The notes: generated by a model from the sequence alone, not told the origin. A stretch of DNA of 58,331 nt from an uncultured Candidatus Saccharibacteria bacterium (GCA_964356915.1 CAYHJF010000005.1:1-58331); one strand, 5' to 3'. Counted from the stretch's first letter, positions 15,154 through 17,538 are shown. Numbers and translations are program-made.

Positions 15154-17538
15154 TTATCGTTGCCACGGAAAGAGTTTTGCTGAGTAGGCAAGAGCAGATA
15201 TGATGAATGTTATAAAGATAATCGTGAAGCCAACAAATGTTCCGAGTGATTGGAAGTGCCGTTTCGCGATAGTTTTGAAAAACCAATAGAGTTGTCCGAT
15301 GAGAGCGGCGAGAGTGATTACGAGTAAGACTTGTCCCGGTAGGTGAGTGAAAAGTTCTGGGTCGATGAATACGAAGTGAAAGATCGAGCTGATGTAGGCT
15401 GGATAAATAAATCGGTGTAAATTTTTCCATCGACGTGGCTTGAGTTTTGTGACAGCCCAGTCAGTTGAAGTGAGGGCCATCAAAAATAAAATCGGATACG
15501 CAATTGTTCCAAAGATAATAGGGTTCTCAAGTGGATTGAGTGAAAAGTATATCTCCGCGAGATTATAATCATAGTAGTATTGATATACTGATGCGATATG
15601 GAGCGAGACGAATATAAATCCCGCCACGCCTAAGTAGCGACGCAGGTGCCAGTATCGAGCGGTTTTTGGGAACCATTTAAAAATCGCGCTTGTAAAAAGT
15701 GCAAGACCAATAAGTGATGCTCCCATGAGCGCAAAACTTCGTACGAGGGAAATATATTGTTCGCCTTGTTGTAGCCAGTAAAATTGTAAAAGAAATTGAA
15801 TGGCCCAGATAAGAAACGCGATGGCGCCAAAAAGGAGAATGTAAGGCCAACGACGAATACGAGGGATCGTGGAGCGTGCAGACAATTGAACCGGTATTAC
15901 TACCATTTTTTCTATTTCTATTTCAACTACATTGTCAGTAACGCGAGTTTTATACGTTTGTTGTGCGCGGATTGCGGGAGGGCCAATAACTTCACCAGTT
16001 TCAATACTATAACGTGCTCCATGGAGAGGGCATTCAACAGTGGTGTCAGTCTGTGATCCATCCGCAAGCGATCCACCAGCGTGAGAACACGTATTGTTCA
16101 TCGCGAAATATTTTTCCTTTACCTTAAATACAACGATGTGTTGTTCACCGAAATTTTTCATGATTGGTTTGCCTGCGGTGAACTCACTTATAGGCGCAAA
16201 CGGAACAAACGTTTTTACTTTTTCTATAGTAGAGGTGGTGGATGAAGTTTTTGCTACTTGAGCAATAGTAGTATTCGAGCGTTCAAGGCTAAAGAGTTTT
16301 TGTTCGGGTGTGTATTCTCCTCGAGCAAGCGCTATGCTTATCTCCGCCGCGAGAGTCCCCATAACAAGTCCATTGCCTCCAAATCCTGTGATGACAATAA
16401 TGCGTCCGTGTTCATGAGGATGTGCGAATACGTATGGGAGGTTGTCGTTTGTTTCAAAGAGACTGCCTGACCACTTAAACATGTGCGTATAAGAGTCTCG
16501 AGGATTGTCGAGCTTGAGACGTGTTTTGATAAATTGTTCTATCTTTGGGAATGCATTTTGACTTTGAGCTTGTGCGGCATCAATGTCGCATCCGCCTACG
16601 ATCATCGTGTGAGGATCGGTTTTACGGTAATAAAAATAGGGTAGGGAAGTATCCCAGTAGAGATCATCACCAAGAGGAATTTGTGAATGAGCGGCAGATA
16701 CAACATATGATAGCTTCTGAGTAACAAGCGTTTGAAGCTCTGTAAAATATGAATGAGGACGACCGGTTGCGATAATAATTTTTTGAGCGTGTACGGCAAG
16801 AGACCCTACATATGCCGTCGCTCCAGTTGGAGTTGTTTCAAATCGAGTCACTTCAGATTCTTCAAATATATGCAAACCTTTTTTGACAAGAGCGAGGCTC
16901 ATATGTCGAATAAATGCGCGTGCGTGCATGGATCCTTCTTCCGCGAGTCCAATGGCTTCCGCAAAGGGTGAGCCTGTAAGCTCGCCGACATGTCTCAATG
17001 ATGCGCGGTCGTCTGCTTTACGAATGACCGTCCATTCTTCTTCAATAACGGGGTCATTATTTTTATAGGATCCAATATAGGAGTTACATATACGAAAGTC
17101 ACAGTCGATGTGTTGAGAGGTGATGAGGTCAAAGATATATTTTTGAGTTTTTCCTGATGCATCGAGAACGCCGCGTACGAATGCGGGGCCATAAAGTTTT
17201 TCAAGCGCGACAATTGATCCTTCAGGAAGCCGAGTAAGGAACCCGGTAGTTGCTCCTGAGTCACCCGTCGCGATATGATTTTTTTCCAAAAGCACTACGC
17301 GCATATTTTTTTCAATCGCATAGTGGGCTGCCATGATGCCAGCAATACCACCGCCGACAATTACGAGGTCAGTAGTTTCATCTTTTTCGATTTTTGGGAA
17401 CAGACGTTCATCAGGAGTTTTGGCATACCAGGGAGAATTCATATGTCTTACTATACGGCACCCGTGCTTGCCTTTCCATGGGTGTTCTGTAGGCTTGGAG
17501 GCAGAGTCATGACTACAAGCGTGGCACGTGTTCGACAC
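15154..17538 (-). CDS. Three-domain fusion: FAD-dependent oxidoreductase (DAO-like) + Rieske [2Fe-2S] + ferric-reductase-type (YedZ/MsrQ-like) heme-b membrane domain
   Basis: 'DLVIVGGGIAGIMAAHYA...VVLLEKN' is the FAD fold. 'CSHAGGSL...CPLHGARY' is the Rieske CxH/CxxH pair. The C-terminal ~235 aa has 6 TM helices with His-containing segments 'FVSLHIASV' and 'NLHRFIYPAYISSIFHF'. The start is uncertain: GTG at 17538 or ATG at 17442. Confidence 0.75.
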   Translation of the reverse strand: MSNTCHACSHDSASKPTEHPWKGKHGCRIVRHMNSPWYAKTPDERLFPKIEKDETTDLVIVGGGIAGIMAAHYAIEKNMRVVLLEKNHIATGDSGATTGFLTRLPEGSIVALEKLYGPAFVRGVLDASGKTQKYIFDLITSQHIDCDFRICNSYIGSYKNNDPVIEEEWTVIRKADDRASLRHVGELTGSPFAEAIGLAEEGSMHARAFIRHMSLALVKKGLHIFEESEVTRFETTPTGATAYVGSLAVHAQKIIIATGRPHSYFTELQTLVTQKLSYVVSAAHSQIPLGDDLYWDTSLPYFYYRKTDPHTMIVGGCDIDAAQAQSQNAFPKIEQFIKTRLKLDNPRDSYTHMFKWSGSLFETNDNLPYVFAHPHEHGRIIVITGFGGNGLVMGTLAAEISIALARGEYTPEQKLFSLERSNTTIAQVAKTSSTTSTIEKVKTFVPFAPISEFTAGKPIMKNFGEQHIVVFKVKEKYFAMNNTCSHAGGSLADGSQTDTTVECPLHGARYSIETGEVIGPPAIRAQQTYKTRVTDNVVEIEIEKMVVIPVQLSARSTIPRIRRWPYILLFGAIAFLIWAIQFLLQFYWLQQGEQYISLVRSFALMGASLIGLALFTSAIFKWFPKTARYWHLRRYLGVAGFIFVSLHIASVYQYYYDYNLAEIYFSLNPLENPIIFGTIAYPILFLMALTSTDWAVTKLKPRRWKNLHRFIYPAYISSIFHFVFIDPELFTHLPGQVLLVITLAALIGQLYWFFKTIAKRHFQSLGTFVGFTIIFITFIISALAYSAKLFPWQR

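What the first reader, a model, noticed from the sequence alone, without database searches (positions are those of the whole stretch)
15154..17538. Single polypeptide combining an FAD oxidoreductase, a Rieske [2Fe-2S] domain and a ferric-reductase-type heme membrane domain
**Seen in sequence.** The 794-aa ORF has four parts.
- A Cys/His-containing N-terminal stretch, 'CHACSH...HGC', which counts only if the GTG at 17538 is the real start.
- A DAO-type FAD domain ('VIVGGGIAGIMAAHYAIEKNMRVVLLEKN').
- A Rieske domain ('CSHAGGS...CPLHGARY').
- About 235 aa with six TM helices and His residues placed within helices ('FVSLHIASV', 'NLHRFIYPAYISSIFHF'), matching the YedZ/MsrQ/ferric-reductase transmembrane family.

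**Established knowledge.** FAD-Rieske two-domain proteins exist, e.g. Bacillus YhfW-type. FRD domains carry b-type heme and move electrons across the membrane.

**Inference.**
- FAD, then 2Fe-2S, then heme b in one chain would be a self-contained transmembrane electron conduit.
- The gene converges, with a 9-nt gap, on the CopC-CopD gene, and it lies beside the DsbB/Trx pair.
- A role in extracytoplasmic Cu(II)/Fe(III) reduction or in feeding an external reductase is therefore plausible but unproven.
Basis: partly seen in the sequence, partly recalled or inferred. Interest (0 to 1): 0.66.

Follow-up and report, generated by a model that had tools for sequence, protein, structure and literature searches.

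The report
Fused flavin, iron-sulfur, heme membrane protein
A gene in an ultra-small groundwater (CPR) bacterium joins a flavin dehydrogenase, an iron-sulfur ferredoxin and an MsrQ/STEAP-like heme membrane domain in one chain, which probably moves electrons across the membrane in an organism that has no respiratory chain; the family is rare and unstudied, and the proposed link to the copper genes next door is not supported.

Summary
The ORF is real, and the fusion of three domains is real. Pfam DAO, Rieske and Ferric_reduct all score above their gathering cut-offs. Independent assemblies show no frameshift, and a diverged strain shows purifying selection along the frame.

- **Start.** The Cys/His N-terminal stretch is not part of the protein. 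The start is ATG 17442, giving 762 aa.
- **Helices.** There are seven TM helices, not six. The N-terminus is inside and the C-terminus outside.
- **Subclass.** The TM domain belongs to the MsrQ/YedZ/STEAP subclass. It has one outer heme b (H647/H721) and an intact cytoplasmic flavin pocket (R633, R634, S691, W704, H708). It is not a bis-heme domain.
- **Copper link.** The adjacency to CopCD and DsbB is not conserved in any of 18 related loci.

The architecture is rare: about 57 clusters at 90% identity, about 17 at 50%, and about 15 of 185,579 species genomes. It occurs only in CPR bacteria and DPANN archaea, and I found no publication on it.

Three variants show that the modules work together. 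Some relatives have DM13 fused or encoded next door on the outer side. A permuted DAO-FRD-Rieske family carries a four-His FRD. Rieske-FRD proteins also exist without the FAD domain.

The most likely path is substrate, FAD, [2Fe-2S], pocket flavin, heme b, external acceptor. The donor, the acceptor and the direction of flow are unknown. This is a new variant of a known kind, of moderate interest.

The parts
15154..17442 (-). Revised coding sequence: 762 aa plus stop, starting at ATG 17442 (Met33 of the 794-aa ORF).
   Evidence: The database gene call is 762 aa. Homolog N-termini agree with this start. The protein is identical in an independent 11-kb assembly. Four runs show no frame-breaking indels. 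In a diverged strain, 29 of 40 substitutions fall at third codon positions.
17443..17538 (-). Upstream in-frame stretch from the GTG to the ATG, encoding 'SNTCHACSH...HGC'. It is most likely untranslated 5' region. It holds a sigma-70-like site at 17478-17450.
   Evidence: No homolog has this extension. The promoter-like site TGGAAA-17-TATAGT ends 7 nt before the ATG; this is a consensus match only.
16339..17370 (-). DAO-type FAD-dependent oxidoreductase domain (aa 57-400 in 794 numbering), with the GxGxxG motif at 17338-17355.
   Evidence: Pfam PF01266 scores 124.9 bits. Foldseek matches glycine oxidase, sarcosine oxidase, L-amino-acid deaminase and D-Arg dehydrogenase with target TM-scores of 0.61-0.82. 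The substrate-carboxylate Arg of glycine oxidase ('WSGIRP') reads 'WSGSLF' here.
15916..16209 (-). Rieske-type [2Fe-2S] ferredoxin domain (aa 444-541). The ligand codons are C484 at 16087-16089, H486 at 16081-16083, C503 at 16030-16032 and H506 at 16021-16023.
   Evidence: Pfam PF00355 scores 63.5 bits and PF13806 scores 39.7. The ligands are invariant in 44 sequences. The best PDB sequence matches are Rieske ferredoxins of ring-hydroxylating dioxygenase systems, with E-values of 1e-24 to 1e-19.
15850..15915 (-). Flexible, Arg-rich linker between the Rieske domain and TM1 (aa 542-563).
   Evidence: pLDDT is below 50 at residues 517-528 of the 762-aa model. The stretch before TM1 averages 2.7 K+R. 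Three of the eight nonsynonymous strain differences fall here.
15250..15849 (-). MsrQ/YedZ/STEAP-class ferric-reductase-type membrane domain, TM1-TM6 (aa 564-763). The heme b ligand codons are H647 at 15598-15600 and H721 at 15376-15378. The cytoplasmic flavin-pocket codons are R633/R634 at 15637-15642, S691 at 15466-15468, W704 at 15427-15429 and H708 at 15415-15417.
   Evidence: Pfam PF01794 scores 45.4 bits and NCBIfam MsrQ scores 38 bits, below its cut-off. In an alignment with E. coli MsrQ, R77, R78, H91, S135, W147, H151 and H164 are all identical. The roles of those residues come from PMC12525009. The best structural matches of the TM-only model are STEAP2, STEAP4 and STEAP1, then NOX5.
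15178..15249 (-). Seventh TM helix (aa 764-787), specific to this family. It places the C-terminus outside the cell. Here only 7 residues follow it; in about 10 relatives a DM13 domain follows.
   Evidence: TM7 is present in all 40 aligned members, and the longer forms continue into DM13. The C-terminal tail averages 0.43 K+R, against 3.0 for the TM6-TM7 loop.

Best explanation
The gene encodes a 762-aa membrane flavo-iron-sulfur-cytochrome of a CPR (Patescibacteria) bacterium. It most likely works as a self-contained transmembrane electron conduit that needs no quinone.

**Proposed path**
1. A cytoplasmic DAO-family FAD domain oxidises a small organic substrate that has not been identified. 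It is probably not a canonical alpha-amino acid, because the carboxylate-binding Arg is missing.
2. Electrons pass one at a time to the fused, flexibly tethered Rieske-type ferredoxin domain.
3. The Rieske domain docks on the cytoplasmic face of an MsrQ/STEAP-class membrane domain and reduces a flavin held in the conserved R633/R634/S691/W704/H708 pocket.
4. The electrons then reach a single b-type heme ligated by H647 and H721 near the outer face.
5. From the heme they go to an extracytoplasmic acceptor. In about a fifth of relatives this is a fused or adjacently encoded DM13 domain. In this genome it is unknown; candidates are Fe(III) or Cu(II) chelates, O2 or a surface protein.

**Shown here:** the domain composition, the invariant ligand and pocket residues, the 7-TM N-in/C-out topology, the rarity and taxonomic range, the modular variants, and purifying selection.

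**Inferred:** cofactor occupancy, the direction of flow, the donor and the acceptor.

Outward electron flow would be electrogenic and depolarising, as it is in NOX (established knowledge). Its role would then be redox balancing or extracellular reduction, not energy conservation.
For: **Domains and key residues**
- All three domains score above the Pfam cut-offs.
- The Rieske ligands and the TM residues R633, R634, H647, S691, W704, H708 and H721 are invariant in 40-44 homologs that are only 34-46% identical.
- The same seven TM residues are identical in E. coli MsrQ. There, H91 and H164 ligate the heme, and R77, R78, H151, W147 and S135 form the FMN pocket; the R77A and R78A mutants lose FMN (PMC12525009).
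- Arg in place of the first heme His is the signature of the single-heme YedZ/STEAP class (PMC3591440).

**Structure and topology**
- The models are confident: pLDDT 89.6 for the full chain and 92.9 (pTM 0.88) for the TM part.
- The nearest solved structures to the TM part are STEAP2, STEAP4 and STEAP1, which are single-chain reductases with a flavin and one heme.
- Cytoplasmic loops average 2.7-3.7 K+R and external loops 0.4-0.7.

**Modular variants that link the parts functionally**
- DM13 is fused after TM7 in 10 relatives, or is encoded as a lipoprotein immediately downstream in the closest relative.
- A permuted DAO-FRD-Rieske family has 6 TM helices and a four-His FRD.
- Rieske-FRD proteins exist without the FAD domain.

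**Other support**
- The Rieske domain is closest to low-potential electron-shuttle ferredoxins.
- The gene shows no frameshift and is under purifying selection.
- The host is a CPR bacterium, a lineage reported to lack electron-transport chains (PMC7507113).
Against: - No cofactor has been observed; everything rests on sequence and predicted structure.
The pTM of the full chain is only 0.67.
- In E. coli MsrQ the FMN and heme potentials are about -340 and -250 mV. That is lower than is typical for DAO-type flavins, so outward flow would be uphill unless the potentials differ here.
- The substrate is unknown, and the canonical amino-acid carboxylate Arg is absent.
- The window protein has no extracytoplasmic domain, and the 58-kb window encodes no DM13.
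- CPR bacteria generally lack heme biosynthesis (my own knowledge), so heme would have to be scavenged.
- The Rieske-FRD protein P0122 is paired with a GSDH/PQQ-type protein that appears to be membrane-anchored. This hints that the module may carry electrons inward in some contexts.
- No expression data were found.
Confidence: 0.6

Rival explanations
1. Cupric or ferric reductase serving the neighbouring copper system. The outer heme would reduce Cu(II) held by CopC or by the secreted 255-aa protein to Cu(I) for uptake through CopD, in the way STEAP and FRE reductases feed Ctr1.
For: The gene ends 9 nt from the CopC-CopD fusion. That gene follows a Trx-like gene, a DsbB-like gene and a secreted ORF. 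The closest solved structures to the TM domain are the STEAP metalloreductases, which reduce Fe(III) and Cu(II).
Against: The adjacency is not conserved. None of 18 related loci has CopC/CopD, DsbB or the Trx gene within +-8 kb. ORF clustering finds no shared neighbours. A Pfam scan of 112 neighbouring ORFs finds no copper family. The genes converge, so they are not co-transcribed. Many relatives carry DM13 instead as the external partner.
Confidence: 0.12
2. Inward electron flow. An extracytoplasmic donor, such as DM13 or a PQQ-type dehydrogenase, would reduce the heme. Electrons would then run through the flavin and the Rieske cluster to the FAD, which would reduce a cytoplasmic acceptor. 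This would form half of a redox loop that conserves energy.
For: The Rieske-FRD protein P0122 overlaps by 4 nt, and so is probably translationally coupled to, a GSDH/PQQ-type gene whose product appears to be membrane-anchored. The MsrQ-type heme and FMN potentials are lower than typical DAO-flavin and Rieske-ferredoxin potentials, so inward flow would be downhill. Inward flow would build membrane potential, which would help an organism without a respiratory chain (inference).
Against: Every characterised FRD protein (MsrQ, STEAP, NOX, FRE) carries electrons outward. DAO-family flavoenzymes are substrate oxidases or dehydrogenases, not reductases (established knowledge; the structural matches are). 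The PQQ link is a single observation in a variant that lacks the FAD domain.
Confidence: 0.1
3. Substrate:quinone oxidoreductase. The membrane domain would hand electrons to a membrane quinone and not to an external acceptor, as in membrane-bound L-amino-acid deaminase, DadA or GlpD.
For: E. coli MsrQ binds ubiquinone or menaquinone tightly and can probably reduce it. The FAD domain resembles Proteus L-amino-acid deaminase, which feeds the respiratory chain.
Against: CPR and DPANN genomes lack electron-transport chains. They generally lack quinone biosynthesis as well (my own knowledge). The conserved seventh TM helix with external DM13 in relatives points to an extracytoplasmic endpoint. No quinone site is defined even in MsrQ.
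Confidence: 0.08
4. NOX-like oxidase. The outer heme would reduce O2 to superoxide or H2O2 outside the cell, either as an oxygen-dependent electron sink or as a weapon or signal at the interface with a host cell.
For: The domain belongs to the FRD superfamily, which includes bacterial and eukaryotic NOX enzymes. The window protein exposes only short loops outside, so a small acceptor such as O2 is plausible. Relatives sometimes lie near peroxiredoxin or Msr genes: AhpC/Redoxin in 3 loci and MsrA in 2.
Against: The domain is of the single-heme STEAP/MsrQ class, not the NOX class. The NOX-specific motif was not tested. The neighbourhood signal is weak, and three of those loci are syntenic Micrarchaeota, so they count as one observation.
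Confidence: 0.08
5. Artefact: a frameshift or misassembly has joined a separate membrane-protein gene to a two-domain FAD-Rieske gene.
For: Two-domain FAD-Rieske proteins and stand-alone 7-TM relatives both exist as separate genes elsewhere.
Against: About 57 clusters share the same fused architecture. An independent assembly gives an identical protein. Contigs from three studies show no frame-breaking indels. Substitutions in a diverged strain are 28 synonymous to 8 nonsynonymous codons, and all of those in the TM part are synonymous.
Confidence: 0.01

Closest known systems
E. coli MsrQ (YedZ), the membrane flavocytochrome of the MsrPQ system
   Same: It has the same TM fold class. All seven functional residues are identical: the heme ligands H91 and H164, and the FMN-pocket residues R77, R78, S135, W147 and H151. 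It carries one outer heme and a cytoplasmic flavin site, and it moves electrons outward.
   Different: Identity is only 21-25%, and the NCBIfam MsrQ score is 38 bits against a cut-off of 130. No MsrP partner is present in the window or in 20 related loci. The electron donor is fused here (FAD plus Rieske), whereas MsrQ uses the separate Fre reductase. This family has an extra seventh TM helix.
STEAP2-4 metalloreductases (eukaryotic)
   Same: They are the closest solved structures to the TM domain (7tai, 6hcy). Like this protein, they are single chains with an N-terminal cytoplasmic reductase module and a one-heme, one-flavin FRD that reduces extracellular acceptors.
   Different: Their donor module is an F420-type NADPH oxidoreductase domain, not DAO-FAD plus Rieske. 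They have 6 TM helices. They are eukaryotic. Gln replaces the pocket His. Identity is 16-20%.
NOX and FRE enzymes, including bacterial NOX5-like and SpNOX types
   Same: They are single-polypeptide transmembrane electron conduits of the FRD superfamily with a fused cytoplasmic flavin dehydrogenase.
   Different: They have four His and two hemes, and a C-terminal FNR-type FAD/NADPH domain. This family has Arg at the position of the first His and no NAD(P)H domain. The structural match is weaker than to STEAP.
Two-domain FAD-Rieske proteins (B. subtilis YhfW type)
   Same: They have the same DAO-then-Rieske order. They are the nearest non-membrane relatives, at E-values of 1e-33 to 1e-42, with closer CPR versions at 36-39% identity (P0060, P0061).
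   Different: They are soluble and lack the membrane domain. Identity to the non-CPR members is about 25%. Their function is unknown; the yhfW knockout changes the metabolome and competence, but no substrate is known (PMC7317962).
Permuted DAO-FRD-Rieske proteins of CPR bacteria (P0059, P0063, P0074, P0189)
   Same: They combine the same three modules in one chain in the same lineages. Their FAD and Rieske parts are 36-41% identical to this protein.
   Different: The Rieske domain follows the membrane domain. There are 6 TM helices. The FRD is of the four-His bis-heme class, with His at the R633 column and Val or Ile at the S691 column. This is an independent fusion.
Bacterial FRD architecture 'M4' (FMN plus Rieske plus FRD) in Zhang et al. 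2013, PMC3591440
   Different: It is described only as a figure model with an FMN module, not a DAO-type FAD domain. It predates CPR and DPANN genomes. I could not recover its members from the supplements.

Membership tests
DAO family of FAD-dependent oxidoreductases (PF01266) | A profile match above the gathering score, and an N-terminal GxGxxG Rossmann motif followed by an acidic residue at the end of the second strand. | tested here: met
   The score is 124.9 bits against a cut-off of 27.9. The sequence has 'VGGGIAG', and E85 is invariant. The fold matches glycine and sarcosine oxidases.
Glycine or D-amino-acid oxidase type enzymes within the DAO family | The Arg that binds the substrate alpha-carboxylate, in the 'W-[SA]-G-[IL]-R-P' motif (ThiO R302; my own knowledge). 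| tested here: not met
   The alignment to Geobacillus glycine oxidase places 'WSGSLF' opposite 'WSGIRP'. The family consensus is 'WSGSLF'. All NCBIfam enzyme models score far below their cut-offs.
Rieske [2Fe-2S] domain (PF00355) | The CxH...CxxH ligand motifs and a profile match. | tested here: met
   The score is 63.5 bits against a cut-off of 20.3. The motifs C484-S-H486 and C503-P-L-H506 are invariant in 44 sequences.
Low-potential Rieske-type ferredoxins (electron shuttles of dioxygenase systems) | Closer in sequence to the ferredoxin components than to bc1/b6f Rieske proteins, and a low midpoint potential. | tested here: inconclusive
   The best PDB matches are the NDO, BphF, TodB and CarAc ferredoxins (1e-24 to 1e-19), against b6f Rieske at 6e-13. 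The potential itself cannot be tested here.
Ferric reductase domain (FRD) superfamily (PF01794) | A profile match, and heme-ligating His residues in TM3 and TM5. | tested here: met
   The score is 45.4 bits against a cut-off of 28. H647 in TM3 and H721 in TM5 are invariant. The STEAP and NOX folds are the top structural matches.
Bis-heme NOX/FRE class of FRD | Four canonical His residues, two in TM3 and two in TM5. | tested here: not met
   The position of the first TM3 His is an invariant Arg (R633). H631 nearby is not conserved.
YedZ/MsrQ/STEAP class of FRD | The first heme His is replaced by a conserved Arg. Three His remain, as in YedZ. The flavin-pocket residues are R77, R78, S135, W147 and H151 in MsrQ numbering. 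| tested here: met
   All of these residues are identical in the alignment with E. coli MsrQ and invariant in the family. The definitions come from PMC3591440 and PMC12525009.
MsrQ proper (the partner of MsrP) | An equivalog-level sequence score, and a periplasmic molybdoenzyme MsrP encoded alongside. | tested here: not met
   NCBIfam NF003831 scores 38 bits against a cut-off of 130. tblastn finds no MsrP in the window or in 20 related loci.
YedZ/MsrQ/STEAP class of FRD | Actual binding of one b-type heme and one flavin. | not testable with these tools
   This needs spectroscopy and flavin analysis of the purified protein.
STEAP2-4 metalloreductases | An N-terminal F420-type NADPH oxidoreductase domain (PF03807) and 6 TM helices. 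| tested here: not met
   The N-terminal part is DAO plus Rieske, with no PF03807 hit. There are seven TM helices.

The most novel reading that the evidence does not exclude
The family is a complete miniature electron-export chain in a single polypeptide: dehydrogenase, then iron-sulfur carrier, then flavin, then heme, with DM13 added in some members. It would have been exchanged horizontally between CPR bacteria and DPANN archaea. It would give these respiration-less, ultra-small cells a quinone-independent way to dump or exchange reducing equivalents across the membrane, for example onto minerals, metals, O2 or the surface of a host cell. It would be a previously unrecognised redox interface in organisms described as purely fermentative.
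Probability: 0.3. Interest if true: 0.8.

Novelty: new variant of a known kind. Interest (0 to 1): 0.55.

Why it matters
CPR bacteria and DPANN archaea make up a large share of microbial diversity, and they are reported to lack electron-transport chains (PMC7507113). A conserved single-chain protein that links a cytoplasmic flavin dehydrogenase, through a Rieske cluster, to an MsrQ/STEAP-type transmembrane heme module would be one of the few membrane redox devices in these organisms. It could explain how some of them dispose of electrons or reduce extracellular metals.

For enzymology, it is a natural fusion in which the MsrQ-type module has its electron donor attached. The physiological donor of MsrQ is still debated, so the fusion could serve as a model for how that pocket flavin is reduced. 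The two independent fusion orders, one with a single-heme FRD and one with a bis-heme FRD, form a natural experiment on what the inner cofactor does. The DM13 link would also give the first testable bacterial context for a domain whose 'electron transfer' label is only predicted.

Tried and rejected
1. **GTG 17538 as the start.** Rejected. No homolog has the extension, and the database gene call starts at M33.
2. **A bis-heme reading that uses H631.** Rejected. H631 is not conserved, and the true column holds Arg.
3. **Conserved synteny with CopCD, DsbB, Trx, pgsA or murA.** Not found by tblastn, ORF clustering or a Pfam scan.
4. **A split version in Ryanbacteria**, with a two-domain FAD-Rieske gene next to a stand-alone FRD gene. 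The 257-aa and 144-aa neighbours are unrelated to the TM domain and to DM13.
5. **The 255-aa secreted ORF as YcnI-like.** No support from Pfam, NCBIfam or PDB sequence searches.
6. **A circular contig**, suspected from partial tRNAs at both ends. The two ends are different tRNAs with no overlap.
7. **Taxonomy from MurA.** Uninformative, because the hits come from mixed phyla. AlaRS settled the host as CPR.
8. **Members of Zhang et al.'s 'M4' architecture.** Not recoverable from the supplements.
9. **RNA evidence for expression and the 5' end.** No RNA runs are available.
10. **Inter-cofactor distances.** Model coordinates are not exposed to scripts.
11. **A DM13 gene in the window.** None found.

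
Full report
**Observation**

The 794-aa ORF at 15154..17538(-) exists. Pfam places three domains above their gathering scores:
- DAO, aa 57-400, 124.9 bits
- Rieske, aa 445-529, 63.5 bits
- Ferric_reduct, aa 605-717, 45.4 bits

NCBIfam adds a sub-threshold MsrQ match at aa 575-725 (38 bits, cut-off 130) and no equivalog-level enzyme assignment for the FAD domain. The CopC-CopD fusion (13195-15144) ends 9 nt from the stop codon on the opposite strand. DsbB-like and thioredoxin-like genes lie just upstream of it.

**Start codon**

The protein database calls this gene as 762 aa, starting at Met33 (ATG 17442). Of 39 aligned homologs, 36 have a full N-terminus. They begin 2-12 residues before a conserved 'SPW' motif, and none has a Cys/His-rich extension. 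A weak sigma-70-like site (TGGAAA-17-TATAGT) lies between the GTG and the ATG, and its -10 box ends 7 nt before the ATG. This is a consensus match only, but it would fit a near-leaderless transcript. The 'CHACSH...HGC' part is therefore most likely not translated.

**Integrity of the fusion**

- An independent 11-kb assembly from a 0.1-um-filtered groundwater sample encodes the identical protein.
- Contigs from four runs in three studies cover the gene without frame-breaking indels.
- In a diverged strain, 29 of the 40 listed substitutions fall at third codon positions, giving 28 synonymous and 8 nonsynonymous codons. Every change in the TM part is synonymous.

A frameshift or chimera is excluded.

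**Anatomy of the membrane part**

Hydropathy analysis, a full-length AlphaFold model (pLDDT 89.6) and a TM-only model (pLDDT 92.9, pTM 0.88) all show seven helices, not six.

Across 44 family members the positive-inside rule is clear. The pre-TM1 segment and loops 2-3, 4-5 and 6-7 average 2.7-3.7 Lys+Arg. Loops 1-2, 3-4, 5-6 and the C-terminal tail average 0.4-0.7. The FAD and Rieske domains are therefore cytoplasmic and the C-terminus is outside.

The seventh helix is present in every member. In about ten relatives of roughly 905 aa it leads into a DM13 domain.

**Which kind of ferric-reductase domain**

The family alignment shows invariant R633, R634, H647, S691, W704, H708 and H721. H631 is not conserved.

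An alignment with the real E. coli MsrQ sequence, taken from MG1655, shows that these seven residues are identical to MsrQ R77, R78, H91, S135, W147, H151 and H164.
- In MsrQ, H91 and H164 ligate the single periplasm-side heme b.
- R77, R78, H151, W147 and S135 line the cytoplasm-side FMN pocket, and the R77A and R78A mutants lose FMN (PMC12525009).
- Arg in place of the first canonical heme His is the published signature of the single-heme YedZ/STEAP class (PMC3591440).

In agreement with this, the closest solved structures to the TM-only model are STEAP2, STEAP4 and STEAP1, ahead of NOX5 and NOX2. The domain is thus of the MsrQ/STEAP class: one outer heme and, very probably, a pocket flavin.

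It is not MsrQ itself. The score is far below the equivalog cut-off, and no MsrP is found in the window or in 20 related loci.

**The soluble parts**

*Rieske domain.* The ligands C484, H486, C503 and H506 are invariant. By sequence the domain is closest to the Rieske ferredoxins of ring-hydroxylating dioxygenase systems (1e-24 to 1e-19), which are dedicated one-electron shuttles. It is less close to the bc1/b6f Rieske proteins. It is joined to TM1 by a low-confidence, Arg-rich linker.

*FAD domain.* Its fold is that of glycine oxidase, sarcosine oxidase, L-amino-acid deaminase and D-arginine dehydrogenase, at 12-19% identity. The motif that supplies the carboxylate-binding Arg in glycine oxidase, 'WSGIRP', reads 'WSGSLF' here and in the family consensus. 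The substrate is therefore unknown and is probably not a canonical alpha-amino acid. The two-domain soluble relatives of the YhfW type also have no known substrate.

**How common, and where**

| Search | Result |
|---|---|
| 5.8 billion clusters at 90% identity | about 57 share the DAO-Rieske-FRD order; the best is only 46% identical |
| 1.84 billion representatives at 50% identity, queried with the Rieske+TM part | 51 hits at E<=1e-30; about 17 three-domain proteins; 2 Rieske-FRD proteins without FAD; about 30 stand-alone 7-TM proteins or FRD-DM13 proteins |
| 185,579 species-representative genomes | about 15 carry a full-length copy |

The species genomes with a copy are CPR bacteria (Kerfeld-, Peri-, Magasanik-, Microgenomates, Andersenbacteria) or DPANN archaea (Aenigmatarchaeota, Micrarchaeota, Bilamarchaeum). 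Some of the records carry labels that look like defaults ('uncultured Gammaproteobacteria').

The window itself is CPR. All named relatives of its short AlaRS are Patescibacteria, at 61-71% identity. MurA was uninformative.

Literature searches found no description of this architecture. No paper combines 'ferric reductase' with Patescibacteria. The nearest is a 2013 figure model of an FMN-Rieske-FRD fusion.

**Evidence that the modules work together**

1. DM13 (Pfam 'Electron transfer DM13') is either fused after TM7 or, in the closest relative, encoded as a separate gene with a lipoprotein-type signal immediately downstream.
2. A second CPR family has the order DAO-FRD-Rieske with six TM helices, which again keeps both soluble domains cytoplasmic. 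Its FRD is of the four-His bis-heme class, with His at the R633 column and Val or Ile at the S691 column. The FAD-Rieske unit was therefore fused independently to two FRD subclasses.
3. A Rieske-FRD protein without the FAD domain overlaps by 4 nt a GSDH/PQQ-type gene whose product appears to be membrane-anchored.

These repeated and rearranged fusions are classic evidence for functional coupling.

**Neighbourhood**

The copper/thiol cluster next to the gene is not a conserved partner.
- None of the window's neighbours is found within +-8 kb of 18 related loci.
- ORF clustering finds shared neighbours only among three syntenic Micrarchaeota.
- A Pfam scan of 112 neighbouring ORFs from 16 loci finds no family in more than three loci and no CopC or CopD.
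- There is only a faint thiol and oxidative-stress theme: AhpC/Redoxin in 3 loci and MsrA in 2.

The Cu(II)-reductase idea rests on analogy with STEAP alone.

**Mechanism and caveats**

The best-supported reading is an outward electron conduit that needs no quinone: substrate, FAD, [2Fe-2S], pocket flavin, heme b, extracytoplasmic acceptor.

- The direction is inferred from every characterised FRD protein and from the oxidase or dehydrogenase nature of DAO enzymes.
- Against it, the E. coli MsrQ cofactors have low potentials, about -340 mV for FMN and -250 mV for the heme. The potentials here must differ, or flow could be inward; the PQQ-linked variant hints at that.
- Cofactor occupancy, the donor and the acceptor are all untested.
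- The window protein has no external domain, and no DM13 gene lies in the 58 kb.
- No RNA data exist.

**Verdict**

This is a real, rare and uncharacterised multi-domain redox protein. It is a new variant, in domain architecture, of the known FRD-based transmembrane reductases. It is interesting mainly because it sits in lineages that otherwise lack membrane electron transport. Its N-terminal part, helix count, heme scheme and copper link need correction.

Noticed in passing
window 11486-15144 (+): A cluster of extracytoplasmic copper and thiol genes. It holds a 255-aa ORF with a signal peptide followed by 'HEHQ...' and a C-terminal TM anchor, which has no Pfam, NCBIfam or PDB match. It also holds a thioredoxin-like gene (12316-12702), a DsbB/BdbC-like gene (12687-13205), and a CopC-CopD fusion with about 240 extra C-terminal residues (13195-15144).
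   Followed up: partly
L005:10292-10870 (Magasanikbacteria, closest relative): A separate 192-aa DM13 protein with a lipoprotein-type signal ('LFLGAGC') is encoded directly downstream of the three-domain gene. In other relatives the same domain is fused after TM7. It carries a conserved 'IHC.AFNVPW' motif near its C-terminus.
   Followed up: partly
L089:3373-6074: A 357-aa Rieske-FRD protein without the FAD domain (P0122) overlaps by 4 nt the end of a 543-aa GSDH/PQQ-dehydrogenase-like gene whose product has an N-terminal membrane anchor. This suggests the Rieske-FRD module also pairs with an external dehydrogenase.
   Followed up: partly
proteins P0059, P0063, P0074, P0189 (CPR): A permuted family with the order DAO-FRD-Rieske. 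It has six TM helices and all four canonical heme His residues, so it is of the bis-heme class. It represents an independent fusion of the same three modules.
   Followed up: yes
window 17450-17478 (-): A sigma-70-like site, TGGAAA-17-TATAGT, ends 7 nt before ATG 17442. There is no obvious Shine-Dalgarno sequence before that ATG, so the transcript may be leaderless. This is a consensus match only.
   Followed up: no
window 17275-18135 (+): The mechanical 286-aa ORF for the CDP-alcohol phosphatidyltransferase (pgsA-like) overlaps the 5' end of the finding's ORF. The database gene call is only 180 aa, which leaves a divergent intergenic region of about 150 bp.
   Followed up: partly
window 1-54 and 58276-58331: Both contig ends fall inside tRNA genes. 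They are different tRNAs with no overlap, so these are ordinary assembly breaks and not a sign of circularity.
   Followed up: yes
window 43488-45329 (+): The alanyl-tRNA synthetase is short (589 aa as called) and lacks the usual C-terminal region. All close relatives are of the same length and come from Patescibacteria. This was useful as a lineage marker for the contig.
   Followed up: partly
loci L006, L007, L009, L013, L017-L019: Several TPA_asm MAG records that carry the gene are titled 'uncultured Gammaproteobacteria', although their copy is 36-45% identical to the CPR protein studied here, like the copies from labelled CPR genomes. The taxon labels look unreliable.
   Followed up: no
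window 15100-17700, run X6: A related strain, with contig pieces mostly 95-99% identical, occurs in a different study's metagenome. Traces of the sequence also appear in drinking-water and freshwater metagenomes, so the lineage is geographically widespread.
   Followed up: partly
window 15568-15609 (aa 644-657) and family alignment: The outer loop between TM3 and TM4 carries a family-specific motif, 'S-[FL]-N-P-x-x-N-P-[IV]-x-F-G', in which P669, N672 and F676 are invariant. The motif is absent from E. coli MsrQ. It is a candidate site for the external acceptor near the heme.
   Followed up: no
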